From the IMG/VR virus record IMGVR_UViG_3300009545_000018, positions 51,224 to 115,223 of that record: a stretch of DNA of 64,000 bases; one strand, given 5' to 3'. Position 1 is the stretch's first letter. The number at the start of each line of letters is the position of its first letter. A program made the translations under genes and the position numbers. Under the pieces are notes generated by a model that was not told the DNA's origin, did not search any database, and worked only from the letters and a program-made list of their open reading frames with translations. Of this stretch, positions 7,998 through 62,786 are shown one piece after another. This stretch comes from a virus.

Positions 7998-8003
7998 CAT
8001 TCA

Positions 8004-34861: not shown

Positions 34862-34952
34862 CTAATGTCGAGATGGCGAAAAGGTAAACGCGGAAGAATT
34901 ATGGGTATAATACATAATTCATCTGGGAAACTGTAATTATACTACATAACCC

Positions 34953-43859: not shown

Positions 43860-44768
43860 ATGAATAAAACAATAAAATCTCCTTATTCTTTATTTGGAGG
43901 AAAATCTAAAGTATCTTCTATAATTTGGGAAAGATTAGGTGAAGTTTCTAATTATATTGAGCCATTTGCTGGAACTTTGGCGGTTTTATTAGGAAACCCT
44001 AATATTCCAAAAATAGAAACAGTTAATGATATAAATTGTTATATTGCTAATTTTTGGCGAGCTGTTGCTGCTGAACCGGATAAAGTAGCAAGTTTTGCAG
44101 ATTACCCATTAACACAAACCGACTTGCATGCCCGCCATAGATGGTTAGTTTCCAGCACCAATGATAATTTTCGATTAAAAATGGATACAGATCCTGACTT
44201 TTATGATGTAAAAATTGCAGGATGGTGGTTATGGGGAATAGGCGCATCTATTGGAAATAATTGGTTAAATTCGAAGGGGTTAAATTCTATGCCTTTATTG
44301 TCTTCCGCAGGGGGAGGCATTCATGGATTAACCAATAATATTGATGACTGGATGCATCAATTACAAAAAAGAATGCGCCGAGTTCGGGTAGCATGTGGCG
44401 ATTGGAAAAAAATACTTACTCCATCTATTAGCTTTAATAACAAAGGATTAACTGATAAAGATATAACTGGAATTTTGTTAGATCCGCCATATGATTTTAC
44501 TTCAAGATCTAAAGTTTATGATAATGATGAAGATATTTTTCTTAATGTAGTTAAGTGGGCTGTTGAAAATGGTAGCAACCCTAGATTAAGAATAGCTTTA
44601 TGTGGTTATGATGGAGATTGGGGAATTCCAGATTCTTGGGAGAAATATAACTGGAAAGCCAATGGCGGGATGGCAAACCTGGGAAATAAACAAGGCAAAC
44701 AAAATGCTAATAAAGAAGTAATATGGTTTTCTCCTTTTTGTTTAAAGTCAGAAAATGAAATTATATAA
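43860..44768 (+). CDS. Dam-like DNA N6-adenine methyltransferase (alpha-class, DPPY)
   Basis: N-terminal FGGK ... EPFAGTLAV AdoMet motif and DPPY catalytic motif. Confidence 0.75.
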   Translation: MNKTIKSPYSLFGGKSKVSSIIWERLGEVSNYIEPFAGTLAVLLGNPNIPKIETVNDINCYIANFWRAVAAEPDKVASFADYPLTQTDLHARHRWLVSSTNDNFRLKMDTDPDFYDVKIAGWWLWGIGASIGNNWLNSKGLNSMPLLSSAGGGIHGLTNNIDDWMHQLQKRMRRVRVACGDWKKILTPSISFNNKGLTDKDITGILLDPPYDFTSRSKVYDNDEDIFLNVVKWAVENGSNPRLRIALCGYDGDWGIPDSWEKYNWKANGGMANLGNKQGKQNANKEVIWFSPFCLKSENEII

Positions 44769-45003
44769 TAACTTAAAAAAACATCTTAATAAGTCTAATC
44801 TAGAATTAACTCAAGATATGGCATATTATATAGCTCTTGCCATTAAAGAGTATTTGCCTAGCTTTTACGAAAGAGCTAAGAAATCTGATTGTGATGATTT
44901 AAAGTTAGTAAAATATACTGATGCTTTAGATTTAACTGAAGAGGAAATTATAAAGATATTAAAGTATGCTGGTAAAATTGGAAATTTAAAAGCTTTTATT
45001 TAA
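44755..45003 (+). CDS. small protein, KLKAF-tail family (NLKAFI)
   Basis: ORF track; four-gene paralogous array 44755-45709 sharing Y..A.....P(E/S)FY. Confidence 0.55.
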   Translation: MKLYNNLKKHLNKSNLELTQDMAYYIALAIKEYLPSFYERAKKSDCDDLKLVKYTDALDLTEEEIIKILKYAGKIGNLKAFI

Positions 45004-45008
45004 AGATT

Positions 45009-45239
45009 ATGAAACTAAAACAAGGTTTTTCTAAAACAAAAATAACAAAAGACATGTATCCTATGTTATTATTTGCTATTAAGCAAGTATTGCCAGAATT
45101 TTATAATGCATGTTACAGTAGAAGAATGAATGAAACGACTATAATTTTATTCGCCTTAAACGAAAGTATTGATGAAATATCTTATTATAAAATAATTGAT
45201 ATCTGTGAAAAATATAAATCTATGCAGGCATTTTCATGA
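45009..45239 (+). CDS. small protein, KLKAF-tail family variant (SMQAFS)
   Basis: ORF track. Confidence 0.5.
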   Translation: MKLKQGFSKTKITKDMYPMLLFAIKQVLPEFYNACYSRRMNETTIILFALNESIDEISYYKIIDICEKYKSMQAFS

Positions 45240-45472
45240 CATCAATTAATAAAATTTTAGATTACAAGGCAATAGATATTGTAAAAAATTACCCAATTCT
45301 TATTTTAGTTATTAAAGAAATTTTTCCAGACATATATGACAGCAAGAAAATAGAAAATTGGTCTGACTTAACTATTATCTCTTATATTTTAAATTTAAAA
45401 ATAAATACAATTACAGTAGGCAAATTTCTTTTGTTATATGATAGGTATCAAAAATTTTATGTGTTTAGTTAA
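45236..45472 (+). CDS. small protein, KLKAF-tail family variant (KFYVFS)
   Basis: ORF track. Confidence 0.5.
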   Translation: MTSINKILDYKAIDIVKNYPILILVIKEIFPDIYDSKKIENWSDLTIISYILNLKINTITVGKFLLLYDRYQKFYVFS

Positions 45473-45709
45473 ATGAAAATTAATACATTAATGTATAGTT
45501 GTGATTGGGAAGTTTTATTTCTAGCAATTAGTCAAGTGTATCCAGAAATGGTTATAGAGGCTAAAAAATATTTAGTTGGAAAATACGGACATTATATTTC
45601 AAATGAAACTATTATTGGCTATTGTGCAGTACAAATTGACTCTAGTTTAGATTCAAAATTAGTTGTTGATGTCTATAATAGATTATTGAAGTTAAAAAGT
45701 TTTACTTAA
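45473..45709 (+). CDS. small protein, KLKAF-tail family (KLKSFT)
   Basis: ORF track. Confidence 0.5.
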   Translation: MKINTLMYSCDWEVLFLAISQVYPEMVIEAKKYLVGKYGHYISNETIIGYCAVQIDSSLDSKLVVDVYNRLLKLKSFT

Positions 45710-45741: not shown

Positions 45742-46932
45742 ATGCAAGTAATATATACTGGTGAAAAAATACCTAAGAAGATAACGAAATCAATATTTTT
45801 GGCTGGACCATCTGCTCGTCCTGGACAAGAAGATGAAGTAGCTCATTGGCGTCATGATGCTATTAAGATCTTAGAAGATAAGGGGTTTGACGGAGTAATA
45901 TTTAGTCCAGAAAATAGGGACGGTTCTTTTGGTAAGGATTTTGATTATGATGATCAAATAGATTGGGAAGATGAGTGTCTTAATATTGCTGATTGTATTT
46001 TGTTTTGGGTTCCACGAGATTTATCACTAGATTCTAATGGTAATTTGAAATTAGGAGGACTTACAACTAATGTGGAATTTGGCGCATGGTGTAATTCTGG
46101 CAAAGTATTATTTGGTGCTCCCCCTAAAGCAGATAAAGTAAGATATTTACAACGTTATGCTGATACCTATAATTTAGGTAATTATGAAAATTTAACGGAA
46201 CTATTACAGGCAGCTATAGATAAATTGGGAAATGGCGCTGAAAGAAATGAGGGGGAAAGATATGTTCCATTAATGATTTGGAATACTCCATCTTTTCAAT
46301 CTTGGTATACAGCGCAAACTAATGCTGGTAATGTCTTAGAGACTGCCAAATTATTATATTCTTTTCGACCCGGGTTTAAAGACTTTGTATTTCTCTGGAT
46401 TCTTAAAGTTGAAGTTTATATTACATCAGAAAAAAGAAGCAAAACAAATGAATTTGTTCTCGCCAGAACAGATACATCTTCTGTTGTTATGTGGTATCCA
46501 GAAGGTGAATCTATTGAGGAGAATTTAGTTGTCTTAATAAAAGAATTTAGATCTCCAGCATCTACGGAAGATGGTTTCATTTATGAAAATGCCGGCGGAT
46601 CTTCTCATAATCCAAAAGAAGATGCTTTTGACACTGCTATTGAAGAAGTACACGAGGAGACAGGGCTTATGATTGATAGTAAAAGATTAAAATCAATGCA
46701 ATCTAGACAAGTCTGTGGAACATTATCTTCTCATAAAAATTATTTATATTCTTATCAATTAAATAAAGAAGAATTAGATTGGCTAAAATCTCAAGATGGA
46801 ATTGCTCATGGAGTAGAAGAAGATACGGAAAGATCTTTTGTTACTATTTCTAGTGTGGGAGAAATATTGCAAAGCACTAATGTAGATTGGGCTAATTTGG
46901 GCGCTATATTATCAGTAATAGTTAAAAATTAA
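45742..46932 (+). CDS. fusion protein: N-terminal nucleoside 2-deoxyribosyltransferase-like domain plus C-terminal Nudix hydrolase domain
   Basis: N-terminal FLAGP...WE...ADCILFW resembles the NDT / deoxyribonucleotide-N-hydrolase fold; C-terminal Nudix-box remnant AIEEVHEETGL. Confidence 0.5.
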   Translation: MQVIYTGEKIPKKITKSIFLAGPSARPGQEDEVAHWRHDAIKILEDKGFDGVIFSPENRDGSFGKDFDYDDQIDWEDECLNIADCILFWVPRDLSLDSNGNLKLGGLTTNVEFGAWCNSGKVLFGAPPKADKVRYLQRYADTYNLGNYENLTELLQAAIDKLGNGAERNEGERYVPLMIWNTPSFQSWYTAQTNAGNVLETAKLLYSFRPGFKDFVFLWILKVEVYITSEKRSKTNEFVLARTDTSSVVMWYPEGESIEENLVVLIKEFRSPASTEDGFIYENAGGSSHNPKEDAFDTAIEEVHEETGLMIDSKRLKSMQSRQVCGTLSSHKNYLYSYQLNKEELDWLKSQDGIAHGVEEDTERSFVTISSVGEILQSTNVDWANLGAILSVIVKN

Positions 46933-47756: not shown

Positions 47757-48508
47757 GAACTATTAATAAATCTACACTTGACTCTATTAAAATAAGGGTT
47801 GAAAAATTTCTTAATAAAAAAGATATTTTATTTTACGATTATGAAAATATGCGAGAAAATATTCTTTTTCTTATTAAAGAGAATGCTGTTCTTAAAGAAA
47901 AATTATTTGATTTAGAACAAGAATTGCCTGATGATAAACGTTGGGAAAACATTTTAGCTTCTAAATTAGAATTAGCATTTTTAGAAAATGAAGCTAAAGA
48001 GTTCTTTGAAATAAATAATTCTATCAATAATCAAACATATACAATTATCATTCAGAAAAAGTTTGGGAAAACACCTAAACAACTTTTGAAATCTTCCGAG
48101 ATTCGTCGTTTAAAAGCAATTAGAAAAATTGTAAGCTTACAAAAGCATATAATAGAATTACAAAAAACTTGCACCGATTATAATAATCAAATTGGTGCTT
48201 TGACAAACATTGTAAGCAAACCTTTTCAAAATGATGAGTCTGTACGATTATCTCGACAAATTGTTGAGGCTGCGCTTCTTAAAGCACAACAATTAGCACA
48301 TTCATTTAATACTCAGTTCATAAAATATGAAACTGTTAAATTACATAAATCATTTACAGCATCTTATTATGAAAGCTGGCGCCGTGCTTCTGACGCAGAA
48401 AGTCAAGTAGAAAAGTTGAAAAACGAAATTAGTAAAATAAAAAGAGTCATTTTGCAAAAGAAATATCCATTCTGTCGGATATATAAAGGAAGATTAAAGA
48501 AAAAATAA
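47753..48508 (+). CDS. coiled-coil hypothetical protein
   Basis: ORF track. Confidence 0.5.
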   Translation: MRTINKSTLDSIKIRVEKFLNKKDILFYDYENMRENILFLIKENAVLKEKLFDLEQELPDDKRWENILASKLELAFLENEAKEFFEINNSINNQTYTIIIQKKFGKTPKQLLKSSEIRRLKAIRKIVSLQKHIIELQKTCTDYNNQIGALTNIVSKPFQNDESVRLSRQIVEAALLKAQQLAHSFNTQFIKYETVKLHKSFTASYYESWRRASDAESQVEKLKNEISKIKRVILQKKYPFCRIYKGRLKKK

Positions 48509-48600
48509 TTTTATTATTTGCAAAACCTTGACGGCAATATACAATGATTTAACTTGTTTGCCTCACAATTCGTTGAATTTATTTCAAATATAAAAGGAGA

Positions 48601-50181
48601 TTGATTATGGTATCTAAAAATTTATTTAAGTCTACAGGTTCAGTTAAGAAAGCAATTAAACCAGTTAATGCTGTTAATAATGCGGGCGGTGTGGCTTATA
48701 CTATGGATGATAAGGCTGCCTTAGCGCAACTTGCCATGACTGGTTGTTTTAATGGAACTTATTATGTTGATGCTAAAGATCAACTTAATCAAGTTGTTGC
48801 TCTTGCTAATAAGCTTCCAGTAGAGTTCGTGGCAAAGTTAGCAGTATATGCTCGCCAAGAAGGTTTTATGAAGGATATGCCTGCAGTATTAGCCGCAGTT
48901 GTTGCTAGCAAAGATACTGTTCTTTTATCCAAGATCTTTCCAAAGGTTATTGATAATCCAAAAATGGTTCGTAACTTTGTACAAGTTATTCGTTCTGGAG
49001 TAACAGGCAGAAAAAGTTTGGGAACCCGTCCTAAGAAATTAATTCAAAATTATTTGAATTCATTAACTGATGAGCAGTTGTTTAAGGCTGATGTAGGTAA
49101 TAGCCCTTCATTACAAGATATTATTAAGTTAGCTCGTCCTAAGCCAGCTACTAAGAATCGCTCTGCTTTGTATGGTTATTTGCTAGACAAGGAATATAAT
49201 CCAGAAGACTTATGTTCCTTGGTTCAAGAGTTTGAATCTTTCAAAAAAGAAATGAGTTTGGATATTCCAAATGTTCCATTTCAAATGTTAACAGCTTTGC
49301 CATTAACTGATAAGCATTGGAGCAAGATTGCTGAAAATGCAACCTGGAATCAAACCAGAATGAATTTAAATACTTTTGCTCGTCATAAGGTATTTGAAGA
49401 TGCTACTACTTTAAACCTATTGGCTGAGAGATTAGCTGATTCTTCACAAATTGCAAAAGCAAAGGTATTCCCATATCAATTGTTTGCTGCATTTAAAAAT
49501 GTAACTGCAGATGTTCCTAAGAAATTAACTAATGCTTTACAAAAAGCAGCGGATGCTTCGCTGGAAAATATTCCAGCTATTGAAGGTGAAGTTCACGTTT
49601 TAGTTGATGTATCAGGCAGCATGAGTAGCCCAGTCACTGGTAATCGTGGTTTTGTCACTAGTACTATGCGTTGTATTGATGTAGCAGCCTTAATGGCTTC
49701 TGCATTAATGCGCAAGAATGAAGATACTAAGGTATATCCATTTGATACTAGAGTTCATAATCATTCATTGAATCCAATGGATTCAGTGATGACTAATGCG
49801 GCAACTCTTGCTGCATTTGGTGGTGGAGGAACTGATTGTGGTATGGCGTTAGAGAATTTAAATAAGCAGAAAGCCAAAGGCAATCTTGTTATTTATGTTT
49901 CTGATAATGAGTCTTGGGTAGATACTACTCCTAATTCCTATTATTCTCAAAGAGGTACTAAGGTAATGGAAGAGTGGAATAAATATAAAGCTCGTAATCC
50001 AAAAGCCAAATTGGTTTGTATTGATGTCACTCCTAATAAAACCACTCAAGCTCATAATAGAGAAGATATAATCAACATTGCAGGATTTTCTGATCAAGTA
50101 TTCGATGTTATTGCATTATTCCAAAAATTTGGCAATAATAAAGATCTTTGGGTTCAAACCATTGACTCAGTAGAAATGTAA
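48601..50181 (+). CDS. rsr: Ro60-like TROVE-domain protein with C-terminal vWA (MIDAS) domain (Rsr ortholog)
   Basis: N-terminal TROVE-like region (NAGGVAY...TGCFNGTYY), C-terminal MIDAS VLVDVSGSMS; 526 aa like bacterial Rsr; SD AAAGGAGATTGATTATG. Confidence 0.6.
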   Translation: MIMVSKNLFKSTGSVKKAIKPVNAVNNAGGVAYTMDDKAALAQLAMTGCFNGTYYVDAKDQLNQVVALANKLPVEFVAKLAVYARQEGFMKDMPAVLAAVVASKDTVLLSKIFPKVIDNPKMVRNFVQVIRSGVTGRKSLGTRPKKLIQNYLNSLTDEQLFKADVGNSPSLQDIIKLARPKPATKNRSALYGYLLDKEYNPEDLCSLVQEFESFKKEMSLDIPNVPFQMLTALPLTDKHWSKIAENATWNQTRMNLNTFARHKVFEDATTLNLLAERLADSSQIAKAKVFPYQLFAAFKNVTADVPKKLTNALQKAADASLENIPAIEGEVHVLVDVSGSMSSPVTGNRGFVTSTMRCIDVAALMASALMRKNEDTKVYPFDTRVHNHSLNPMDSVMTNAATLAAFGGGGTDCGMALENLNKQKAKGNLVIYVSDNESWVDTTPNSYYSQRGTKVMEEWNKYKARNPKAKLVCIDVTPNKTTQAHNREDIINIAGFSDQVFDVIALFQKFGNNKDLWVQTIDSVEM

Positions 50182-50514: not shown

Positions 50515-50838
50515 ATGAAAACCATGTTGTTTGAAAAAACTATTAATTTAGTTAAAACTTTAAGAGAAACATTCACAACTCGATGTTTACATAATCAAAA
50601 ATTGCCCCTTTTTAGTTGGTTACATAGAAATTCTAGTAACTTTTCGAATGAAGAGTTTGAAGAGTTTTGGAAATTTTTAGTAATTTTATTTAAATATAAA
50701 TATAAGGATATGAGCTTATTTTATGAAGCAGGAGAGTCTCCATTAGAAATGTTTGATTTTAGAGCAAACAAAGATCAAATCAATGACTTTATTTCTTTAT
50801 TAGAAAATAAAATTAATAAATTGAAAGCTTTTATTTAA
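50515..50838 (+). CDS. small protein, KLKAF-tail family (KINKLKAFI); paralog of 52210-52497
   Basis: Identical tail KINKLKAFI. Confidence 0.55.
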   Translation: MKTMLFEKTINLVKTLRETFTTRCLHNQKLPLFSWLHRNSSNFSNEEFEEFWKFLVILFKYKYKDMSLFYEAGESPLEMFDFRANKDQINDFISLLENKINKLKAFI

Positions 50839-51674
50839 TGATTAAAAGAAATGGTATTGAAATTAAGACTGCCCAAGCTCCAAATATAGTAGCAGCAAAA
50901 GATACTTTAAATATTCTTAAGAATAAAAATTATCTTGTTAAAGATAAGATCATAGATATTTCAGTGGCATTAGATAATTCAATTAAAAATACTAAGTTAT
51001 ATTTGCCAGAAGATTGTTTTAATAGTAAAAATAATTTAATTAAACCTACTATAGAGGTAACAAATGAAACTACTACCTCTGCTGGGTTAAGATTATTAAA
51101 TAGTGGTTTAGAAAATATTGTAGCTTTGAATTTTGCCTCAGCTAGAAATGTTGGGGGCGGATTTTTAGCGGGGGCAGTTGCCCAAGAAGAAGATTTGTGT
51201 CGGTGTTCTGGATTATATCTTTGTATTAAAAGCAAACCTATCTTTTATAATAAAAACATTTTATGTGATGATACTTTCTATACTAATCATATTATTTACT
51301 CACCCAATGTTCCTTTCTTTCGTAATGATAATCTAGATCTTTTAGAAGAGATATTCCACATTTCTATTATTTCTGCGCCCGCACCTAATGTTAGAGCTAT
51401 GGAGAATGTTGATGAAGATAATTTAAGAAGCATATTAGAAATAAGGGCAGCTAGAATTTTACAGATTGCTATTGAAAATAATCATGAAAATATTATCTTA
51501 GGAGCTTGGGGCTGTGGTGCTTTTGGTAATGATTCTAAAATGATAATTGAGGTTTTTCAAAAGGTATTAAATAGATATCCTCATTTCAAACATGTTTGTT
51601 TTGCCGTCTTTGATAATAAAATAAATGCCCCTATTTTCAATGCATTTAAAGAAGCATTTGAAAATAATGAATGA
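50838..51674 (+). CDS. bacterial-type poly(ADP-ribose) glycohydrolase (macrodomain, DUF2263-like)
   Basis: PARG signature GGG-x7-QEE (VGGGFLAGAVAQEE) in a macrodomain-sized protein. Confidence 0.65.
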   Translation: MIKRNGIEIKTAQAPNIVAAKDTLNILKNKNYLVKDKIIDISVALDNSIKNTKLYLPEDCFNSKNNLIKPTIEVTNETTTSAGLRLLNSGLENIVALNFASARNVGGGFLAGAVAQEEDLCRCSGLYLCIKSKPIFYNKNILCDDTFYTNHIIYSPNVPFFRNDNLDLLEEIFHISIISAPAPNVRAMENVDEDNLRSILEIRAARILQIAIENNHENIILGAWGCGAFGNDSKMIIEVFQKVLNRYPHFKHVCFAVFDNKINAPIFNAFKEAFENNE

Positions 51675-51894
51675 TTTTAAAGTTGGAGATTTTGTTAAAT
51701 TGGCACTTGTAGCTAAAGATGTTATGCCTTTAAATTATTCTCTGTATCAATTTAGTATTGGTAAAATTACTCATATACAATATCATGTGATACAACAATG
51801 TAATTATATATCAGTGTGTTGGTCTAATGACACCAGAACTTATGTTTATATGGATAAACATTTAGTTAAAACAAATTTAAAAGCTTTCGTGTAA
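51667..51894 (+). CDS. small protein, KLKAF-tail family variant (NLKAFV)
   Basis: Start set at the ATG overlapping the PARG stop (ATGAATGA); the track start lies inside PARG. Confidence 0.5.
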   Translation: MNDFKVGDFVKLALVAKDVMPLNYSLYQFSIGKITHIQYHVIQQCNYISVCWSNDTRTYVYMDKHLVKTNLKAFV

Positions 51895-51907: not shown

Positions 51908-52213
51908 ATGAAAATAGAAAATGATACAGAAATATATGTTCCAAATGAATGTTACTTTGGAATTGATGAAAGTGAAGATTATCCAACGACCGTTCTTATT
52001 GTGAATAAAGATTATTGGGATAAAAATCAATGTACCAACGAATCTATTGGAGATCAATCGTTTGAATCAACTATTATTCCAAATGATTTTTATAATGTTA
52101 TGGAAGCCACTTGGGAAACCCAAATGCCTATGGAAAAAGCCAAACTAATTTTAGAGAAATCTGGTTTTACTTTTAATAAATCATTATCTGAGTTTGTAGC
52201 AGATTATGTATGA
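51908..52213 (+). CDS. hypothetical protein; paralog of 50190-50510
   Basis: SD AAGGAAATATTAAAATG. Confidence 0.5.
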   Translation: MKIENDTEIYVPNECYFGIDESEDYPTTVLIVNKDYWDKNQCTNESIGDQSFESTIIPNDFYNVMEATWETQMPMEKAKLILEKSGFTFNKSLSEFVADYV

Positions 52214-52497
52214 TACCACAAGAATTTCATAATAAAGCCATAGAAATACTTACAAAATGGAGGAAAACTCCTTGTATGTATGCTTCTGATTATGAAGCTT
52301 GGATGACTATGGTTCTTGCAATTATGGAATTTGTTGATGTAAGAAATGAATCTCCTGGATTTTTTAAAAAACATATAGGTACTTATGGTAATTCATATCT
52401 AAATTTAGATAAGAAATTAGATGATGAATGGGCTCATAAAGTTATAGATGAAGCAATTAATATTATTAAAATAAATAAATTAAAAGCTTTTATTTAA
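52210..52497 (+). CDS. small protein, KLKAF-tail family (KINKLKAFI)
   Basis: ORF track. Confidence 0.55.
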   Translation: MIPQEFHNKAIEILTKWRKTPCMYASDYEAWMTMVLAIMEFVDVRNESPGFFKKHIGTYGNSYLNLDKKLDDEWAHKVIDEAINIIKINKLKAFI

Positions 52498-52557
52498 ATT
52501 TATTTTAAATAACTGAAGATATATTTTTTCTTGCACTTCATTGGCAAGAGGATATTT

Positions 52558-53247
52558 ATGACAAAAGAAAATTATACATTAGTAGGCGTAGTAATAGATC
52601 GTAGCGGGTCTATGAGTTCATTAGTTTCTGATACAATTGGTGGATTTAATTCCCTTTTAAAAGAACAAAAAAACGAGCCTGGACAAGCTTCTGTTAGTTT
52701 ATGTTTATTTAGTACAGATTATAAACTTACTCATTATGATGATATTAATCAGGTTGAAGAATTAAATGAAATTTCTTATAGACCAGGTGGTGGTACTGCA
52801 CTATTAGATGCTTTGGGTACTACAATTGATGAGATTGGAGTTAGATTAGCTGCTAAAAATGAAGAAGATAGACCATCTAAAGTAATTATTATAGTGATTA
52901 CTGATGGTCAGGAAAATTCATCTAGAAAATATTCTAAAAATAAAATTAAAGAAATGATTTCTCACCAAGAAGAAAAATATAATTGGTCATTTACTTTTAT
53001 TGGCGCCAATATGGATGCAGTTAGTGCTGGCGACTCTATTGGGTTTTCTGCCAATAATTCTTATAATTATTCCGCTTCCGCTGGTGGGACTCAAAAAGTA
53101 TATGCTACCATGAATAATTCTTTAAAAAGAGCTAGAGTTATGGGAAGTGGCATGAAATCTAATGAATCCTTATTTACTCCAGAAGAGGCGCAAAGCTTAT
53201 TAGATTCTGATAAAAAGGTGAAAGATAATGCAGAAAATAAGTCATAA
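52558..53247 (+). CDS. vWA-domain protein (MIDAS DRSGSMSS)
   Basis: Start at MTKEN with SD AAGAGGATATTTATG; MIDAS motif plus TDGQEN. Confidence 0.6.
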   Translation: MTKENYTLVGVVIDRSGSMSSLVSDTIGGFNSLLKEQKNEPGQASVSLCLFSTDYKLTHYDDINQVEELNEISYRPGGGTALLDALGTTIDEIGVRLAAKNEEDRPSKVIIIVITDGQENSSRKYSKNKIKEMISHQEEKYNWSFTFIGANMDAVSAGDSIGFSANNSYNYSASAGGTQKVYATMNNSLKRARVMGSGMKSNESLFTPEEAQSLLDSDKKVKDNAENKS

Positions 53248-56689: not shown

Positions 56690-56718
56690 TTTATTTTTTA
56701 AAATAACGGGCGTTGACA

Positions 56719-56747
56719 ACAAGTAAGTCGGAGTTATAATATGCCTT
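56719..56747 (+). promoter_or_regulatory. sigma70-consensus promoter TTGACA-N16-TATAAT
   Basis: Exact -35 and -10 hexamers with 16-nt spacer immediately upstream of a GTG-start ORF at 56748. Confidence 0.5.
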
Positions 56748-56989: not shown

Positions 56990-57079
56990 GGGGAAGTAGC
57001 TCAGCCGGCCAGAGCGCTTTACTGTTTTATAAAACGAATAGTGAAGAGGTCGATGGTTCAAATCCATCCTTCCCCACCA
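56990..57079 (+). tRNA. tRNA-like gene (90 nt, CCA encoded) with canonical acceptor, D and T arms but a 20-nt anticodon loop
   Basis: GGGGAAG/CTTCCCC acceptor, D arm GCTC-AGCCGGCCA-GAGC, T arm GATGG-TTCAAAT-CCATC, variable AGGTC; anticodon stem CTTTA/TGAAG enclosing CTGTTTTATAAAACGAATAG. Confidence 0.5.
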
Positions 57080-57156
57080 TGAATCAAATGCAGATAAGAT
57101 TACATTTAACAGTTAATTAAAAAAGCATCTTATCAATAATTTGTTGATTCATTTAA

Positions 57157-57240
57157 TGCCGTAGTTGGACAGTGTGGTGAGTCCAAGACGCTGTAAACGT
57201 CCCGGTAAACTTTGTAGGTTCGATTCCTACCTGCGGCACC
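57157..57240 (+). tRNA. tRNA-Tyr (anticodon GUA), long variable region, CCA encoded
   Basis: Acceptor GCCGTAG/CTGCGGC, D arm GGAC...GTCC, anticodon loop CTGTAAA, T arm GTAGG-TTCGATT-CCTAC. Confidence 0.65.
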
Positions 57241-57294
57241 AAAAGATAAAGCAAAGTAATTTGCCTTGTTATTTGACAACTTAATAGTTATGTA

Positions 57295-57369
57295 TTGGGT
57301 AGTAATGTCAACCTGGTAGACGCCTCCGTTTGGATCGGAGAAGTTGCGAGTTCAAATCCCGCCTACCCA
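57295..57369 (+). tRNA. tRNA-Pro (anticodon UGG)
   Basis: Acceptor TGGGTAG/CTACCCA, anticodon stem CTCCG/CGGAG with loop TTTGGAT, T loop TTCAAAT; one extra nt at the acceptor/D junction; no encoded CCA. Confidence 0.55.
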
Positions 57370-57430
57370 ACAAATATAAATGATTTCATATAGTTAGCAA
57401 AGCCAAAGTATTTGGTCAACAAAGTATGGT

Positions 57431-59261: not shown

Positions 59262-59329
59262 CTGGATGGTGGTTACCAAATCCGCAAAGGGGTATAGAAA
59301 TATACTCGGAGGATTGAATCCACTATTAT

Positions 59330-59464
59330 GCAATTCTGGTATAATGGCATTACTGACTCTAAAAAGAGTATCACTTACAAAGAAACCTGTGAGGCTACCA
59401 GGAAATTATTGTAAGAATAACGCCTTGCCTGGCGTAGATGTTGGTTCGATTCCAACGGATTGCA
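59330..59464 (+). ncRNA. extended tRNA-like element (135 nt): canonical acceptor and T arm flanking a roughly 60-nt internal insertion
   Basis: 5' GCAATTC pairs with 3' GGATTGC directly after T arm GTTGG-TTCGATT-CCAAC; internal hairpins ACTCT-AAAA-AGAGT and ACGCC-TTGCCT-GGCGT. Confidence 0.4.
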
Positions 59465-59469
59465 TTAAG

Positions 59470-59558
59470 TGATGTTTGATAAGTAATCACGCCAGAAACA
59501 TGATTTATCATGTTTGCCCTGATCAGCCTGGTAGTTAGGTGCAAATCCTAAGCATCAC
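59470..59558 (+). ncRNA. tRNA-like element (about 89 nt) with D-loop-like AGCCTGGTAG sequence and TGCAAAT loop
   Basis: 5' GTGATGT pairs with 3' GCATCAC flanking a TTAGG-TGCAAAT-CCTAA arm. Confidence 0.35.
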
Positions 59559-59925
59559 AACAACTGAGTTTATATGCCCGAATCCCTATATTGGTTAAGA
59601 CATATAGACAATAGTCCGGTCTTAGGCTACCATTAAGGAGTAATCCTTTTAGAGACCACTGCTTCGGTGTGGGCAAACCCGGCATTTAGGTGGAAAGCCT
59701 AATAAATTTTGCTTGATTAAATAGTTTCTTGCTACAAGATCAACGGTGTACAACGAATCTTGCTATTTAATTGGGAAGTCTTATAATTGTGGACTTGGTG
59801 AAACAGGTATAAGGCGAATTACGCTCGATATTGGATAAAACTAACATTGGGCGCCATGAATCAAATCCGTATAGGAATACATTCGGAAAAAATAAATCTT
59901 ATACACTACTTGTTGATTCAATTAT

Positions 59926-60002: not shown

Positions 60003-60242
60003 TGTAACAAATGCCAGGGCAGCATTACATTTATTGGAATTAAATCCGATGAGGCTCGACTCCTCTTAAGGTCCGGTGACAGGCAAAACATGTTGCTCAT
60101 TATTTGTTGTTACAAATTTTTGACAGTATATCTAAACTGTATAGTGTGAGTTATGCGCAAGGGATAATTACCTAAGTAGCAACTATAGGTTTGCTAGTTA
60201 ATCCTACACATGAATCAGAGTTAACCTGAAAACTAGCACAAT

Positions 60243-60316: not shown

Positions 60317-60394
60317 TGCCCACTAACTTAATTACATAAAAGTAAGGTTGTCGGGGCGCCAAATTTACGTTCTGGTCGTCTAAATAATTAGGAC

Positions 60395-60450
60395 ATCTCC
60401 GCGAAAGGGGAAGATATTGGAGAATTACCAATCTGGAGCGCCATAAGTTA
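60395..60450 (+). repeat. copy A of an about 60-75 nt structured repeat (GGACATCTCC...GGAGAATTACCAA...GCGCCA)
   Basis: About 80% identical to copy B at 60553-60608, same order of hairpins TTGG-AGAATTR-CCAA. Confidence 0.5.
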
Positions 60451-60552
60451 GTGGCTGGAAATCATTTAAGCGAGTTCAAATGCAATAACAGTCCGCCTAA
60501 TTGCTCGTATATTAGGTAACTTAATTTTATGCCCCTGTCGTCGTAAAAAGTC

Positions 60553-60608
60553 AGGACATCTCCAGTAATAGGAGAAGATGTTGGAGAATTGCCAACTGGG
60601 GGTGCCAA
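60553..60608 (+). repeat. copy B of the structured repeat
   Basis: Direct comparison with copy A. Confidence 0.5.
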
Positions 60609-61007
60609 AGGCAAGTAAGGACCAGGAAGCCTTATGAGCTGCTGGTTTTTCATATAGGGAACTAGCCTGGTTAGTCCTATATGAGAACCAACCAATGTCT
60701 TTAAATAAAGAAATTTATATAAGGACACCATGATTAATTTGTGCAGCTGACTTATATTGGATTTCGCGATCTGATATATGAGTGCTGGAAAATACGGAAA
60801 GTTGGAAAACTGATGCACACCGTATAAGTTAACTAAATCACTAACTGTTATTATCTACGCGAATAGATAAAAACAAAGTAATTAGTTAATTATAATTAAT
60901 CAAAAACTTTAGCAAATGCAGTAAGGATTACATTGGTTATAGTCAATCGAAAGATTGATGGTGGGTATCGATTCCCACAGTATCTTTACAAAACTTGTTG
61001 CTATTAT

Positions 61008-61144
61008 TCCGAGGTACGTCTAATGGTAAGACACGCGGCTGTGGGAACTATAGGTTAATAATAAGTCCCGTTCGATTCGGGCAGTTCCAAGAATAACCGC
61101 GCGGTGGTAACACTTTGTAGGTTCGAGTCCTACCCTCGGAGCCA
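61008..61144 (+). ncRNA. extended tRNA-like gene (137 nt, CCA encoded): tRNA-His-like (GUG) frame with a roughly 51-nt insertion in the anticodon loop containing its own mini T-arm-like hairpin
   Basis: Acceptor TCCGAGG/CCTCGGA perfect, T arm GTAGG-TTCGAGT-CCTAC, anticodon stem CGCGG/CCGCG enclosing CTGTGGG + GAACTATAGG...CCCGTTCGATTCGGG... Confidence 0.45.
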
Positions 61145-61334: not shown

Positions 61335-61610
61335 ATGATTTCAAAATTAACAATCAAATCTTATGGAGTGACAGTAACTCTTCCCAGTGAAATTCTAATT
61401 TTAGAAGATTGTATCTGGGCTAAAACTGGTGAACATTTAGCTTTAGGAAAAGACAAAAATATTATGGGTAATGATTGTTTTATTGTCCTTAGAAAAAACG
61501 GAGTTGTTATTTCTGGACCTTCTCCTTTAATTCATTCGGTTGGAGCAAATAGTTTAATTTATCAAGAGTGTTCGGTAGAAAAATATTATAAAATGAAAGC
61601 ATTTTTGTAA
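61335..61610 (+). CDS. small protein, KLKAF-tail family (KMKAFL)
   Basis: ORF track. Confidence 0.55.
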   Translation: MISKLTIKSYGVTVTLPSEILILEDCIWAKTGEHLALGKDKNIMGNDCFIVLRKNGVVISGPSPLIHSVGANSLIYQECSVEKYYKMKAFL

Positions 61611-61879
61611 TGATCAAATATGTTGATGATAACGGTAAAGAAAAAATTTTACCTGAAAAAATAGTTATACTAAAATGTCCTGATAGTTGGCTTATTGAGC
61701 CTGGAGATTATATAGAATTTATTCATACATATTATCTTCATATGAGGATCTCCAGCTTTGAAATCAAAGTTTTAAAAGGATATCATAAGAATAAAATATT
61801 TGATTTACTCTTTAGTCATTTATCTAAGATTGAATATGTAAGCATAGAAAAGTTTGAAAAACTAAAGGCGTTTGTTTAA
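61610..61879 (+). CDS. small protein, KLKAF-tail family (KLKAFV; codons CTA/AAG/GCG)
   Basis: ORF track. Confidence 0.55.
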   Translation: MIKYVDDNGKEKILPEKIVILKCPDSWLIEPGDYIEFIHTYYLHMRISSFEIKVLKGYHKNKIFDLLFSHLSKIEYVSIEKFEKLKAFV

Positions 61880-62107
61880 ATGGAAACCAAGTGGATTTTA
61901 GTAACACAACAAAACTCTGTTTACTATAATAAAATCTTAGAATTAAAAGAAGGTTGGACATCAACCATTTATAATGGGACTATTGTTTGGTTTATTGAGT
62001 CAGTAAATGGTCAAGTTAGACATTATCCGGATTGGTTTGAGTTAAACGATTTGCCAACACATACAGTAGTAACAAAGGATGCCCTTAATTTATTAGCCTT
62101 TTTATAA
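61880..62107 (+). CDS. small protein, KLKAF-tail family variant (NLLAFL)
   Basis: ORF track. Confidence 0.5.
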   Translation: METKWILVTQQNSVYYNKILELKEGWTSTIYNGTIVWFIESVNGQVRHYPDWFELNDLPTHTVVTKDALNLLAFL

Positions 62108-62486
62108 AAAACTTTAGATGAATGCCGCAATGGAATACATATACAACCGATAGCTGAATGTCGCAAGACATTCAATATCTCCGATTTCATAAAAGAGATA
62201 TGAACCAACCTAAAGGAATTCCTATAAGGATAAACTATGTGACTGACAAACTTGAAGCCAGTTAAAGCTCAAGTCCTCTATGGTATTATTAGGATAAGAT
62301 ATACTGTGCTATTGGATAAAATTAATCGCACTTTCTATTGCATTCTTGTCATCTAATTAACTTTTCATTTAAATGAATGCCGATTCGGGAATACATTAAA
62401 CACAAAGATACTGCAGCATGTGCCAGGCTAATCCACATGTACCTTAGGAGTACTCAGGGTAAAGTGTACCGACTTCTCAATCACCT

Positions 62487-62786
62487 TTGTCATTTAACAT
62501 GAATTACTTAAAACACACATTAGATAACGGCACAGTATTAGAAATACCAGAAGAATTTATGGTATTAGATAATTTACCATCAGAAGATCTACATTACAAA
62601 GTAGAATTAATTCTTGATTTTATTAGAGGCTGGGTATTTAAAATAACCCATATAAATGGTTTAGAACTAACTCAATATAAAGAAGATCCAACATGGATTT
62701 GTTATTTTAGTCCAGAAAAGATTTTTAATAAAAAAATTATACCATGTTCACTTGAAAAATTTAACAATATGAAAGCATTTTTATAA
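62487..62786 (+). CDS. small protein, KLKAF-tail family (NMKAFL)
   Basis: ORF track. Confidence 0.55.
   Translation: MSFNMNYLKHTLDNGTVLEIPEEFMVLDNLPSEDLHYKVELILDFIRGWVFKITHINGLELTQYKEDPTWICYFSPEKIFNKKIIPCSLEKFNNMKAFL

What the first reader, a model, noticed from the sequence alone, without database searches (positions are those of the whole stretch)
48520..50181. Phage-encoded Ro60/TROVE-vWA (Rsr-like) protein
ORF 48601-50181 (526 aa) has an N-terminal region with the look of a TROVE module and a C-terminal vWA domain with an intact MIDAS (DVSGSMSS), the domain pair diagnostic of Ro60/Rsr. Ro60 orthologs in phages are uncommon and are functionally tied to Y RNAs and RNA quality control (with PNPase and exoribonucleases). 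The upstream 110-nt leader (48490-48600) has promoter-like hexamers and a strong SD.
Basis: partly seen in the sequence, partly recalled or inferred. Interest (0 to 1): 0.6.

Follow-up and report, generated by a model that had tools for sequence, protein, structure and literature searches.

The report
Phage Ro60 with hidden Y RNAs
This is a genuine Ro60 (TROVE + vWA) RNA-binding protein gene in a very large phage, and its likely partner Y RNAs are five small stem-bulge-stem RNAs hidden among the tRNA genes 7-12 kb downstream; phage Ro60/Y-RNA systems are already known, so the find is solid but only modestly new.

Summary
The ORF is real, but the start is ATG 48607 (524 aa), not TTG 48601. It is a full-length Ro60/Rsr orthologue. 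Pfam TROVE and vWA_Ro60 both pass their cut-offs, the top 13 PDB fold matches are all Ro60/Rsr (TM 0.60-0.67), and the MIDAS is intact. Four of eight RNA-contact residues validated in Thermus phage phiLo Ro60 are conserved.

The family is common: 164 GenBank phage records, more than 8000 metagenomic homologues, and a solved phage structure. The promoter-like hexamers are at chance level.

Rfam finds no Y RNA in the window. Comparative analysis found five Y-RNA-like genes on the Ro strand inside the tRNA island (57080-57151, 59857-59920, 60003-60114, 60908-61005, 62369-62497). Both helices covary. A covariance model built from the phage copies hits only the Ro strand. It abuts Ro in divergent phages, coincides with Rfam YrlA hits, and gives 104 hits, all on the rsr strand, beside bacterial rsr genes. 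It gives none in T5 or actinophage tRNA arrays.

The most likely mechanism is a Ro60/Y-RNA particle whose RNAs are released by tRNA-processing enzymes and which acts on host exoribonucleases or defence. That step is inferred.

Verdict: new member of a known kind, moderate interest.

The parts
48594..48599 (+). Shine-Dalgarno AAGGAG, 7 nt upstream of ATG 48607
   Evidence: Read directly from the sequence.
48607..50181 (+). Ro60/Rsr orthologue CDS (524 aa plus stop)
   Evidence: ORF. Pfam TROVE + vWA_Ro60 above cut-offs. PHROG 850 'RNA-binding protein' 2e-37, residues 21-508. PDB phmmer hits to phiLo Ro60, D. radiodurans Rsr and human Ro60. AF2 model pLDDT 78.5. Foldseek top 13 hits are all Ro60/Rsr.
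48667..49566 (+). HEAT-repeat (TROVE) ring region, about aa 21-320
   Evidence: All-helical in the AF2 model, H33-H321. Aligned to the ring of phiLo Ro60 and Rsr. Pfam TROVE gives 2 stretches, best 213-312.
49597..50121 (+). Ro60-type vWA domain (aa 331-505) with MIDAS D334-x-S336-x-S338 ... T409 ... D433
   Evidence: PF25045 58 bits. MIDAS residues are invariant in 40 homologues. They align with the phiLo Ca2+ ligands D322, S324, T391 and D416 (PMC12135203).
56713..56740 (+). Only perfect sigma-70 consensus (TTGACA-16-TATAAT, 12/12) in the island, about 250 nt upstream of the first tRNA-like gene; candidate promoter of the tRNA/Y array (inferred)
   Evidence: Promoter-like matches overall are at chance level, so only the 12/12 match is noted.
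57080..57151 (+). Y-RNA-like gene Ya (72 nt, minimal stem-bulge-stem). It starts at the base after the CCA of tRNA-like 56990-57079 and ends 6 nt before tRNA-Tyr.
   Evidence: Descriptor. Model R1 55.4 bits. MFE fold reproduces both helices. tRNA adjacency.
59857..59920 (+). Y-RNA-like gene Yb (64 nt, minimal). It ends 5 nt before tRNA-Leu 59926.
   Evidence: R1 58 bits. Fold. Adjacency.
60003..60114 (+). Y-RNA-like gene Yc (112 nt). It starts at the base after the CCA of tRNA-Leu. Its apical domain has a V-like hairpin and a T-arm-like hairpin, gaggCUCGACUccuc. It has the same closing stem as L009:16156-16298, which carries a T arm, a closed acceptor hairpin and a D arm.
   Evidence: R1 43.2 bits, E=1e-5, not used in training. 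Descriptor. Folds.
60908..61005 (+). Y-RNA-like gene Yd (98 nt). Its apical domain has two hairpins, one T-arm-like (gugggUAUCGAUUcccac). It ends 2 nt before tRNA-like 61008-61144.
   Evidence: R1 37.2 bits, not in training; 26 bits with filters off. MFE z = -3.8.
62369..62497 (+). Y-RNA-like gene Ye (129 nt). This is the least certain copy: it is not next to a tRNA, its 3' end overlaps the start of an ORF, and its fold is not better than shuffles.
   Evidence: R1 36.2 bits, E=3e-4, not in training. Descriptor. Fold z = +0.19. Sequence.
56990..57079 (+). tRNA-like gene with acceptor, D and T arms and an encoded CCA. An 11-bp hairpin replaces the anticodon arm, so there is no 7-nt anticodon loop. 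It sits directly upstream of Ya, and orthologues in L013 and L147 also flank Y modules.
   Evidence: Rfam tRNA 59.5 bits with a 16-nt insertion. ARAGORN. Fold z = -4.95. L147 and L013 arrangement.
61008..61144 (+). tRNA-like gene (137 nt) with a 51-59 nt branched insertion in the anticodon arm that contains a T-arm-like minihelix. It sits directly downstream of Yd.
   Evidence: Rfam tRNA 39.3 bits. ARAGORN intron mode. Fold.
52531..53247 (+). Small stand-alone vWA protein (238 aa, VIDRSGSMSS) that is syntenic with Ro60 in the window's clade and recurs near Ro in Mx1 and L023. Its link to Ro is unproven.
   Evidence: Pfam VWA. tblastn synteny table. Mx1 annotation.

Best explanation
ORF 48607-50181 encodes a genuine Ro60/Rsr orthologue: a HEAT-repeat (TROVE) ring closed by a vWA domain with an intact MIDAS. 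It sits in a very large phage with about 30% GC. Its RNA partners are most likely at least four, and probably five, phage-encoded Y-RNA-like genes on the same strand, 6.9-12.3 kb downstream, interleaved with the tRNA genes. Each has a closing 5'/3' stem that ends in (C/U)(G/A)A, an invariant AUGC bulge, a second covarying stem, a UUACAU element, a variable apical domain, and a 9-10 nt 3' internal loop ending in UUUG. This is the Ro-binding module of YrlA/YrlB-type bacterial Y RNAs. Because the elements abut tRNA 3' and 5' ends, they are probably cut out of a polycistronic tRNA/Y transcript by RNase P and the tRNA 3'-processing enzymes (inferred). By analogy with D. radiodurans, Salmonella and Thermus phage phiLo, the Ro60/Y particle would then bind and re-programme or attenuate a host 3'-5' exoribonuclease such as PNPase. 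That would alter RNA decay in the infected cell and possibly counter a host defence (inferred, not shown).
For: Protein. Pfam TROVE scores 32.3 bits against a gathering score of 23, and vWA_Ro60 scores 58 against 27.7. PHROG 850 gives 2e-37. phmmer hits phiLo Ro60 at 2e-14 and D. radiodurans Rsr at 5e-12 over residues 23-505. The AF2 model (pLDDT 78.5) has its top 13 PDB hits all in Ro60/Rsr, at TM 0.60-0.67, followed by a sharp drop to vWA-only hits. MIDAS D334/S336/S338/T409/D433 is invariant in 40 homologues. K143, K144, K174 and K179 align with the validated RNA-contact residues K141, K142, R173 and R178 of phiLo Ro60.

RNA. The descriptor gives 25 hits on the Ro strand and 0 on the other. 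On a MAFFT alignment not fitted to structure, 13 of 17 pairs are compensatory, 84% of cells are paired against 29-56% in slid controls, and the covariation score is 0.57 against 0.08-0.20. Model R1 finds all five window copies, three of them untrained, at 36-43 bits. All 36 hits in 445 kb of phage loci are on the Ro strand. Copies abut Ro in L012, L014, L023 and L026. R1 hits coincide with Rfam YrlA hits: Mx1 L001:254-381, L023:11603-11745 at 64.9 bits, and L014. In 80 bacterial rsr loci there are 104 hits in 49 loci, all on the rsr strand and within about 2 kb of rsr. Several coincide with Rfam YrlA, which reaches up to 95 bits in these loci. The independent 506-kb contig L147 has the same array, Y / odd tRNA / Y / tRNA-Tyr / tRNA-Pro. 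Negative controls gave 0 hits at E<=1 in the T5 25-tRNA region and in three actinophage Ro/tRNA loci. Gaps between tRNA ends and Y elements are 0-6 nt.

Function by analogy. phiLo Ro60 + Yrl1/2 bind host PNPase and attenuate it (PMC12135203). Bas63 gp130, a Ro60-like protein upstream of tRNAs, counters Ppl (PMC11482910).
Against: No window element reaches any Rfam Y-RNA family, even at E<=10. None has the canonical CGAA/GNCGAAN0-1G motif: four read CAAAUG/CAAAUC and one reads UGAAUG. In phiLo, each CGAA base contributed 3-4 fold to affinity. The elements lie 6.9-12.3 kb from Ro, outside the 4-kb criterion of Chen et al. 2014. None has a complete tRNA-like domain. Ye is weak: its fold z is +0.19 and it overlaps an ORF start. 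Only 4 of the 8 validated phiLo RNA-contact residues are conserved. There are no expression, binding or host data. The window encodes no PNPase or RNA ligase that I could detect among the genes scanned. The window covers only part of the genome, so a canonical YrlA may lie elsewhere.
Confidence: 0.8

Rival explanations
1. The protein is a real Ro60 orthologue, but the inter-tRNA stem-bulge-stem elements are only spacers or processing signals of the tRNA array (or small mobile repeats) and are not bound by Ro60.
For: They abut tRNA ends. They lack canonical CGAA and miss Rfam thresholds. Phage tRNA regions are known to contain other stable RNAs without any Ro60; for example, T5 RNAI, RNAIII and 'tRNA-like stable RNAs' are annotated in NC_005859.
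Against: The same modelled element occurs next to Ro/rsr genes where no tRNAs are adjacent: L012, L014 and L023 in phages, and 49 bacterial loci with all 104 hits on the rsr strand. It forms the closing module of Rfam-recognised YrlA RNAs. It is absent from the T5 and actinophage tRNA arrays.
Confidence: 0.08
2. The Ro60/Y particle works mainly as a counter-defence factor. It neutralises a host anti-phage system (as Bas63 gp130 does for Ppl) rather than acting in general RNA quality control or PNPase re-programming.
For: The Bas63 Ro60-like gp130 lies directly upstream of the tRNA genes and is needed to overcome Ppl (PMC11482910). The phiLo authors propose hijack of PNPase to escape CRISPR. 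Neighbouring genes here have a conflict flavour: microbial PARG at 50838-51674, Dam methylases, an NDT-like enzyme and a stand-alone vWA.
Against: No defence system or host is known for this phage. The Bas63 protein is too distant to appear among the tblastn hits. The mechanism of Ppl inhibition is unknown. This reading does not exclude the PNPase model.
Confidence: 0.3
3. Ro60 and the Y RNAs serve the phage's own translation apparatus. They would provide quality control, trimming or protection of the many phage tRNAs and tRNA-like transcripts produced from the island.
For: Ro genes sit in or beside tRNA islands in every phage lineage examined: Mx1, Beuffert, Mareelih, the window's clade and L147. 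The window also encodes a class II aminoacyl-tRNA synthetase and 13 or more tRNAs. Ro60 is known to bind misfolded non-coding RNAs, and bacterial Rsr works with exoribonucleases in rRNA maturation and decay (established knowledge; PMC4201824 introduction).
Against: Co-location may simply reflect shared transcription and processing of small RNAs. There is no direct evidence. Bacterial rsr loci of the same subfamily are not tRNA-linked.
Confidence: 0.2
4. The ORF is only a vWA/MIDAS protein with an unrelated helical N-terminus.
For: The Pfam TROVE hit is modest (32 bits, partial coverage). The NCBIfam Rsr equivalog scores 55.7 bits, far below its 900-bit cut-off.
Against: Full-length sequence alignments to Rsr and to phiLo Ro60. 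Full-length structural matches to 13 Ro60/Rsr chains at TM 0.60-0.67, whereas vWA-only proteins reach TM of about 0.2. All close homologues carry both Pfam domains.
Confidence: 0.01

Closest known systems
Thermus phage phiLo Ro60 with Yrl1/Yrl2 (PDB 9KOP, 9L5Y; Hu et al., NAR 2025, PMC12135203)
   Same: Both are phage-encoded Ro60 proteins with a HEAT ring plus a vWA/MIDAS domain. Sequence E=2e-14 and fold TM 0.66-0.67. The MIDAS ligands and four basic RNA-contact residues are conserved. Both phages encode several stem-bulge-stem Y-like RNAs on the same strand.
   Different: Identity is only about 19-20%. The phiLo Yrls lie immediately upstream of the gene and carry CGAA. Here there are five RNAs, 7-12 kb downstream inside a tRNA array, with CAAA/UGAA in place of CGAA. 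R163 and R169 are not conserved. Binding and the PNPase effect were shown for phiLo and are only inferred here.
Bacterial Rsr with YrlA/YrlB (Salmonella, M. smegmatis, Rhizobium; Chen et al. 2014, PMC4201824; Rfam RF02553/RF02565)
   Same: The same protein architecture. Rhizobium, Undibacterium, Planctomycetota and Acidobacteriota Rsr proteins are 48-53% identical. The same Ro-binding RNA module is present: the phage-derived model hits their rsr-flanking RNAs, and these coincide with Rfam YrlA. Several Y RNAs per locus is also shared.
   Different: Bacterial Y RNAs lie within about 2 kb of rsr. YrlA has a complete permuted tRNA-like domain (T arm, closed acceptor stem, D arm). The window's copies are minimal or retain only T-arm-like hairpins, and they are embedded among real tRNAs. 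No rtcBA operon is present.
Myxococcus phage Mx1 'putative ribonucleoprotein related-protein' (OR576727, WNM70118.1)
   Same: This is the closest protein in GenBank phages: 49.9% identity over the full length. Its Ro gene lies amid a large tRNA island that also holds a tmRNA. A YrlA-like RNA lies between tRNAs (Rfam 32 bits; R1 31.6 bits) about 11.7 kb from Ro. A stand-alone vWA gene is nearby.
   Different: Mx1 is a 170-kb GC-richer phage with no other synteny to the window. Its Y RNA keeps GCCGAAUG and a full tRNA-like domain.
E. coli phage Bas63 gp130 (Ro60-like, PhageMaP preprint PMC11482910)
   Same: A Ro60-like gene directly upstream of the phage tRNA block. The authors speculated that some of the 'tRNAs' are Y RNAs, which is what is found here in the spacers.
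   Different: It is too divergent to be retrieved by tblastn with this protein. Its anti-Ppl function was shown genetically, and no such data exist here.

Membership tests
Ro60 / Rsr (TROVE + vWA) proteins | N-terminal HEAT-repeat TROVE domain | tested here: met
   PF05731 scores 32.3 bits against a cut-off of 23. Alignment to Rsr covers 23-505 and to phiLo Ro60 27-435. The AF2 model is all-helical over residues 33-321.
Ro60 / Rsr (TROVE + vWA) proteins | Ro60-type vWA domain with MIDAS (DxSxS...T...D) | tested here: met
   PF25045 scores 58 bits against a cut-off of 27.7. D334, S336, S338, T409 and D433 are invariant in 40 homologues and align with the phiLo Ca2+ ligands.
Ro60 / Rsr (TROVE + vWA) proteins | Overall ring-shaped Ro60 fold | tested here: met
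   The top 13 Foldseek PDB hits are all Ro60/Rsr, full length, TM 0.60-0.67, E from 1e-16 to 1e-11. The next hits are vWA-only at TM of about 0.2. Ring closure and cavity size were not measured.
Ro60 / Rsr (TROVE + vWA) proteins | Basic surface residues that contact the Y-RNA stem | tested here: inconclusive
   4 of 8 residues validated in phiLo are conserved: K143, K144, K174 and K179 correspond to K141, K142, R173 and R178. These include the two with the largest effect (K142, R178). R137, R163, R169 and K193 are not conserved at the aligned position.
Ro60 / Rsr (TROVE + vWA) proteins | NCBIfam equivalog of bacterial Rsr (NF041674, cut-off 900 bits) | tested here: not met
   55.7 bits, although the alignment is full length at 15-505. 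The protein is a member of the superfamily but is not an Rsr equivalog by NCBI's curated threshold.
Ro60 / Rsr (TROVE + vWA) proteins | Binds Y RNA and misfolded RNA; associates with an exoribonuclease | not testable with these tools
   This needs EMSA, RIP or pull-down experiments.
Bacterial Y RNAs (YrlA RF02553 / YrlB RF02565) | Reaches the Rfam gathering score | tested here: not met
   No YrlA, YrlB or Y_RNA hit in the window at E<=5 over 64 kb or E<=10 over 20 kb. Relatives give sub-threshold to threshold hits: L023 64.9 bits, L014 55.7 bits, and 69-95 bits in bacterial loci.
Bacterial Y RNAs (YrlA RF02553 / YrlB RF02565) | 5'/3' ends paired in a stem-bulge-stem that carries the Ro-binding site | tested here: met
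   Both helices covary: 13 of 17 pairs on the unfitted alignment and 17 of 17 on the fitted one. MFE folds reproduce them.
Bacterial Y RNAs (YrlA RF02553 / YrlB RF02565) | GNCGAAN0-1G / CGAA motif in the 5' strand | tested here: not met
   Window copies read AUCAAAUG, AUCAAAUC, AACAAAUG, AGCAAAUG and AAUGAAUG, and there is no intergenic GNCGAAN0-1G near Ro. Across the family the C and G positions are base-paired and covary (CG 23 / UA 12; GC 27 / AU 8), while AAUGC is invariant. Relatives next to Ro do carry GNCGAAUG.
Bacterial Y RNAs (YrlA RF02553 / YrlB RF02565) | Permuted tRNA-like domain: T arm, closed acceptor stem-loop, D arm (YrlA only) | tested here: not met
   Ya and Yb have none. Yc and Yd have only T-arm-like hairpins. 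The orthologue L009:16156-16298, L023 and Mx1 have the full set. The window copies are therefore YrlB-like or reduced.
Bacterial Y RNAs (YrlA RF02553 / YrlB RF02565) | Encoded on the same strand within about 4 kb of Ro60 (Chen et al. 2014) | tested here: inconclusive
   Same strand: met, 5 of 5 copies, and 36 hits on the Ro strand against 0 on the other in phage loci. Distance: not met, at 6.9-12.3 kb. The arrangement is conserved across the clade.

The most novel reading that the evidence does not exclude
In this clade of huge phages the YrlA design has been taken apart. The Ro-binding stem-bulge-stem modules are separate short genes punctuated by tRNAs and released by RNase P and the 3'-processing enzymes. 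The tRNA-mimic 'effector' part would be supplied by unpermuted tRNA-like genes with non-decoding, extended anticodon arms (56990-57079, 59329-59465, 61008-61144) that sit directly beside the Y modules. Ro60 would then act on, or together with, these tRNA mimics, for example as decoys for host tRNA-targeting defences. This would be a new organisation of the Ro60/Y system, and one that published Y-RNA screens may have missed, because hits overlapping tandem tRNA genes were discarded.
Probability: 0.2. Interest if true: 0.6.

Novelty: new member of a known kind. Interest (0 to 1): 0.38.

Why it matters
Ro60/Y-RNA particles are conserved from bacteria to humans, where Ro60 is a lupus and Sjogren autoantigen, yet their function in bacteria and phages is still poorly defined. 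This locus adds a well-supported case from a clade of very large phages (relatives on contigs up to 506 kb). It shows that the RNA partners can be hidden as short spacer-like genes inside tRNA arrays, where Rfam and annotators miss them or mislabel them as tRNAs or small ORFs. The covariance model built here recovers such RNAs beside Ro/rsr genes in phages and in many bacterial phyla. It could be used to re-annotate them and to choose tractable systems, such as Undibacterium or Rhizobium with 3-7 tandem copies, for studying why several Y RNAs accompany one Ro60. It does not reveal a new kind of system.

Tried and rejected
1. Rfam scans of the window for Y_RNA, YrlA and YrlB at gathering and permissive thresholds found nothing.

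2. A search for GNCGAAN0-1G gave no convincing intergenic site near Ro or in the island.

3. A scan for permuted T-arm, hairpin, D-arm architecture gave only isolated T-arm-like hairpins at 59440 and 61066, both inside insertion-bearing tRNA-like genes.

4. The supplement of Chen et al. 2014, which holds the alignments, is not held. Two reviews are also not held.

5. An association test scanned viral contigs for GAATGC-N7-11-GATTACAT. Of 120 loci, 116 were chance pattern matches. Only 4 passed the full descriptor: 1 with Ro on the same strand and 2 in tRNA clusters. The test has too little power to use.

6. The R1 hit at 36448-36514 (29.7 bits) was judged a probable false positive. Its 'GAUUACAU' is an SD plus ATG at a gene junction, and stem 2 has 3 mismatches.

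7. The 'GGGGAAG' repeat at 63632 is coding, not a tRNA-like gene.

8. The 974-nt stretch with no long ORF upstream of Ro is filled by four small paralogous ORFs, not RNA genes.

9. The promoter-like hexamers upstream of Ro are at chance level.

10. A group I intron as the explanation for the long tRNA-like genes is not supported: no Rfam intron hit, and the insertions are only 13-51 nt.

11. A search for RNA-repair or decay genes (RtcB, RNA ligase, PNPase) among about 30 neighbouring ORFs found none. Not every ORF of the window was scanned.
Full report
OBSERVATION

The window contains an uninterrupted + strand ORF from 48601 to 50181. Its product carries DVSGSMSS. The mechanical ORF starts at TTG 48601. 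The SD AAGGAG (48594-48599) lies 7 nt before ATG 48607 and only 1 nt before the TTG. The closest homologues are 521-524 aa long. I therefore take 48607-50181 (524 aa) as the gene and 48509-48606 as its 98-nt leader. The promoter-like hexamers exist (TTGCAA-16-TACAAT, 48518-48545). Such matches are as frequent in shuffled sequence, 10 found against 9.6 +/- 2.7, so they are not evidence.

WHAT THE PROTEIN IS

Pfam gives vWA_Ro60 (PF25045, 58 bits, residues 331-505) and TROVE (PF05731, 32.3 bits). Both are above their gathering scores. PHROG 850 'RNA-binding protein' matches residues 21-508 at 2e-37. The NCBIfam Rsr model aligns over residues 15-505 but scores only 55.7 bits against a 900-bit equivalog cut-off. 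The protein is therefore a divergent family member and not an Rsr equivalog.

phmmer against PDB sequences finds Thermus phage phiLo Ro60 (9KOP/9L5Y, 2e-14), D. radiodurans Rsr (2NVO, 5e-12, residues 23-505) and human Ro60. An AlphaFold2 model built on 40 homologues (pLDDT 78.5, pTM 0.71) is all-helical to about residue 321, followed by an alpha/beta domain. Its top 13 Foldseek PDB matches are all Ro60/Rsr chains, matched over the full length at TM 0.60-0.67. After those, the scores fall to vWA-only proteins at TM of about 0.2.

The MIDAS residues D334, S336, S338, T409 and D433 are invariant in the 40-sequence alignment. They align with the Ca2+ ligands D322, S324, T391 and D416 of phiLo Ro60. 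In the alignment the chain index equals the residue number plus 9. Using that offset, four of the eight basic residues whose mutation weakened Yrl2 binding in phiLo are conserved here: K141, K142, R173 and R178 correspond to K143, K144, K174 and K179. These include the two strongest, K142 and R178. R137, R163, R169 and K193 are not conserved at the aligned position.

HOW COMMON IT IS, AND WHAT GENOME THIS IS

tblastn finds relatives in 164 of 50,697 GenBank phage records. Most are actinophages annotated 'Ro-like RNA binding protein'. The best hit is Myxococcus phage Mx1, at 49.9% identity over the full length. Hundreds are 65-81% identical, and all carry both Pfam domains. Cellular relatives reach 48-53% identity and are spread over Planctomycetota, Acidobacteriota, Myxococcota, Rhizobium, Undibacterium and others.

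The window is about 30% GC, with nearly all genes on one strand and 13 or more tRNAs. It also encodes a class II aminoacyl-tRNA synthetase and a glutathionylspermidine synthase. A group of viral contigs (L005, L006, L009, L010, L011, L013) shares this gene order: Dam methylase, NDT-like, 53 aa, 194 aa, Ro60, vWA, 164 aa, then the tRNA island. A 506-kb metagenomic contig (L147) has the same synteny. The window therefore comes from a clade of very large phages.

The literature already covers several related cases. Ro60 and YrlA have been reported in 22 phages (PMC4201824). TROVE proteins occur in a subset of jumbo phages (PMC7824862). The structure of phiLo Ro60 is solved, together with Yrl1/Yrl2 binding and attenuation of host PNPase (PMC12135203). 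A Ro60-like gp130 lies directly upstream of the tRNAs of phage Bas63 and counters the Ppl defence system (PMC11482910).

THE SEARCH FOR Y RNAs

Rfam finds no Y_RNA, YrlA or YrlB in the window, even at permissive thresholds. There is no GNCGAAN0-1G motif near the gene. As a positive control, Rfam's YrlA model gave sub-threshold but significant full-length hits inside the tRNA islands of other Ro phages: Mareelih at 52 bits and Mx1 L001:255-383 at 32 bits. It also gave weak YrlA/YrlB hits in inter-tRNA spacers of the window's close relatives.

Reading those spacers revealed a shared module. It consists of a closing stem ending in (C/U)(G/A)A, an AUGC bulge, a second stem, UUACAU, a variable apical part, the return strand of stem 2, a 9-10 nt loop ending in UUUG, and the return strand of stem 1.

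A two-helix descriptor found 25 copies on the Ro strand and none on the other strand, across the window and 20 non-redundant loci. Five of these are in the window: Ya 57080-57151, Yb 59857-59920, Yc 60003-60114, Yd 60908-61005 and Ye 62369-62497. The repeat finder recovers Ya, Yb and Yd independently.

VALIDATION OF THE RNA FAMILY

(i) Covariation. On a MAFFT alignment of 13 short copies that was not fitted to any structure, 13 of 17 pairs show compensatory changes. 84% of cells are paired, against 29-56% when partners are slid. The covariation score is 0.57 against 0.08-0.20. On the 36-sequence model-fitted alignment, all 17 pairs covary. That alignment leans towards the structure.

(ii) Detection of untrained copies. 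A covariance model (R1) finds the three window copies it was not trained on at 43, 37 and 36 bits. All 36 hits in 445 kb of phage loci are on the Ro strand.

(iii) Link to Ro. Copies abut the Ro gene in L012 (upstream) and in L014, L023 and L026 (directly downstream).

(iv) Link to curated YrlA. The R1 or descriptor elements coincide with Rfam YrlA hits in Mx1, in L023:11603-11745 (64.9 bits) and next to Ro in L014 (55.7 bits). MFE folds of L023, Mx1 and L009:16156-16298 show the module closing a T arm, a closed acceptor hairpin and a D arm.

(v) Independent bacterial test. In 80 bacterial rsr loci, R1 gives 104 hits in 49 loci. All are on the rsr strand and within about 2 kb of rsr, and some form tandem arrays of 5-7 copies. 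The longer hits coincide with Rfam YrlA hits of 41-69 bits, and other YrlA hits in the same loci reach 72 and 95 bits.

(vi) Independent phage test. L147, which was not used for the model, shows the order Y, odd tRNA, Y, tRNA-Tyr, tRNA-Pro, then Y, tRNA-Pro. This matches the window's 56990-57371 segment.

(vii) Negative controls. There are no hits at E<=1 in the 25-tRNA region of T5, which has its own stable RNAs but no Ro60. There are also none in three actinophage Ro/tRNA loci, whose Y RNAs are of another type.

An attempted association test by pattern scan of all viral contigs had too little power to use.

ANATOMY IN THE WINDOW

Ya and Yb are minimal, YrlB-like. Yc has the same closing stem as L009:16156-16298, a full YrlA-like RNA, but keeps only a V-like hairpin and a T-arm-like hairpin. 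Yd has two apical hairpins, one of them T-arm-like. Ye is the weakest copy: its fold is not better than shuffles and its 3' end overlaps an ORF start.

None of the five has CGAA. They read CAAAUG, CAAAUC or UGAAUG. Across the family the C and G positions lie in stem 1 and covary with their partners, while A-AUGC is invariant. The conserved determinant in this subfamily therefore appears to be the AUGC bulge with its flanking A-U pair, rather than CGAA as such.

Ya begins at the base after the CCA of the upstream tRNA-like gene and ends 6 nt before tRNA-Tyr. Yb ends 5 nt before tRNA-Leu. Yc begins at the base after that tRNA's CCA. Yd ends 2 nt before the next tRNA-like gene. Relatives show alternating tRNA / Y / tRNA / Y arrays. 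The only perfect sigma-70 consensus in the island lies at 56713-56740, upstream of the array.

MECHANISM

Shown: the gene encodes a Ro60-fold protein with an intact MIDAS and a partly conserved RNA-binding surface. The phage encodes four to five RNAs that carry the covarying stem-bulge-stem module which accompanies this Ro subfamily in phages and bacteria.

Inferred: these RNAs are released from a polycistronic tRNA/Y transcript by RNase P, which cuts at the tRNA 5' ends and so makes the Y 3' ends, and by the tRNA 3'-end machinery, which makes the Y 5' ends. They then bind the outer surface of the Ro60 ring through the module.

Inferred by analogy with D. radiodurans, Salmonella and phiLo: the particle tethers to or gates a host 3'-5' exoribonuclease such as PNPase and so changes RNA decay. 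Alternatively or additionally it counters a host defence, as reported for Bas63 gp130, or it services the phage's own tRNA pool. I give 0.97 to Ro60 identity, about 0.8 to the Y-RNA partnership, and no more than about 0.4 to any single downstream function.

COMPARISON, NOVELTY AND VERDICT

The protein is a member of the Ro60/Rsr family. Fold, both domains and the MIDAS are met. The Rsr equivalog threshold is not met.

The RNAs work like bacterial Y RNAs and share their Ro-binding module. The window copies nevertheless fail three formal YrlA criteria: the Rfam score, the CGAA motif and a complete tRNA-like domain. They also lie beyond the 4-kb rule. They are best described as reduced, YrlB-like Y RNAs relocated into a tRNA array.

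Phage Ro60/Y systems, their position next to tRNA islands, and a solved phage structure are all published, so this is a new member of a known kind. What is modestly new is the concrete identification of multi-copy Y modules as inter-tRNA 'spacers' in huge phages, a model that recovers them widely, and their neighbourhood with non-decoding tRNA mimics. Interest is 0.38.

Noticed in passing
window 56990-57079, 59329-59465, 61008-61144 (also 34867-34980): These tRNA-like genes have normal acceptor, D and T arms, and some have an encoded CCA, but the anticodon arm is replaced or expanded. 56990-57079 has an 11-bp hairpin and no 7-nt anticodon loop (fold z = -4.95). The other two carry 44- and 51-nt branched insertions, and the one at 61008 contains a T-arm-like minihelix. 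The insertions are too short for group I introns. Similar genes occur in relatives (L010, L012, L013, L019, L026, L147), often right next to Y modules. They look like tRNA mimics rather than decoding tRNAs.
   Followed up: partly
window 25456-27075: A phage-encoded class II aminoacyl-tRNA synthetase of the Asp/Lys/Asn type, with an OB anticodon-binding domain (Pfam tRNA-synt_2, 262 bits). This is a hallmark of very large phages.
   Followed up: no
window 44755-45709 (four tandem ORFs), 50515-50838, 51625-51894, 52210-52497; DNA repeats 61561-63499: A multi-copy family of small ORFs (76-107 aa) whose products end in ...(N)LKAF(I/V/L/S). The stop codon often overlaps or adjoins the next start. 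No Pfam or PHROG match. The four tandem copies fill a 974-nt stretch that relatives lack.
   Followed up: partly
window 50838-51674: A microbial-type poly(ADP-ribose) glycohydrolase (PF10021, 151 bits) three genes downstream of Ro60. It is also present downstream of Ro in L013 and L147. It may be an ADP-ribosylation-reversing counter-defence enzyme.
   Followed up: partly
window 52531-53247; L001 7898-8551; L023 ~5982: A stand-alone 238-aa vWA/MIDAS protein (VIDRSGSMSS) is syntenic with Ro60 throughout the window's clade. It recurs within a few kb of Ro in the otherwise unrelated Mx1 and L023. This is a possible functional link to Ro60 that I did not test.
   Followed up: partly
window 59466-59856 and 60115-60242, 60317-60907: Several hundred bases of the island have no long ORF and no recognised RNA family, and look GC-richer and structured by eye. 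No Rfam hit was found, including for group I introns.
   Followed up: no
L001 606-711 (Mx1) and L004 7652-7791 (Gordonia phage Mareelih): These are likely mis-annotations in GenBank. Mx1 'hypothetical protein' WNM70101.1 (610-732) overlaps an R1 Y-like hit. Mareelih 'tRNA-Leu(gag)' (7652-7740) overlaps a full-length Rfam YrlA hit (52 bits), and Rfam calls no tRNA there.
   Followed up: partly
L181, L183-L185, L189, L191, L194, L198, L221, L222 (Undibacterium spp.), ~7630-8230: Bacterial rsr genes followed by tandem arrays of 3-7 short Y-like elements (3 in L221, 7 in L194) spaced about 100 nt apart, most of them missed by Rfam. This number of Y RNAs per Ro60 is unusually high.
   Followed up: partly
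window 45742-46932: A 396-aa protein with an N-terminal nucleoside 2-deoxyribosyltransferase-like domain (PF15891) and an uncharacterised C-terminal half. It is conserved just upstream of Ro60 across the clade, including the 506-kb contig L147.
   Followed up: no
window 36448-36514: An R1 hit of 29.7 bits (E about 1e-3 to 6e-3) containing CCGAAU and GAUUACAU at the junction of two ORFs. It is probably a chance match, since the GGAG...AUG is an SD and start codon and stem 2 is poor. It was not checked in relatives.
   Followed up: partly
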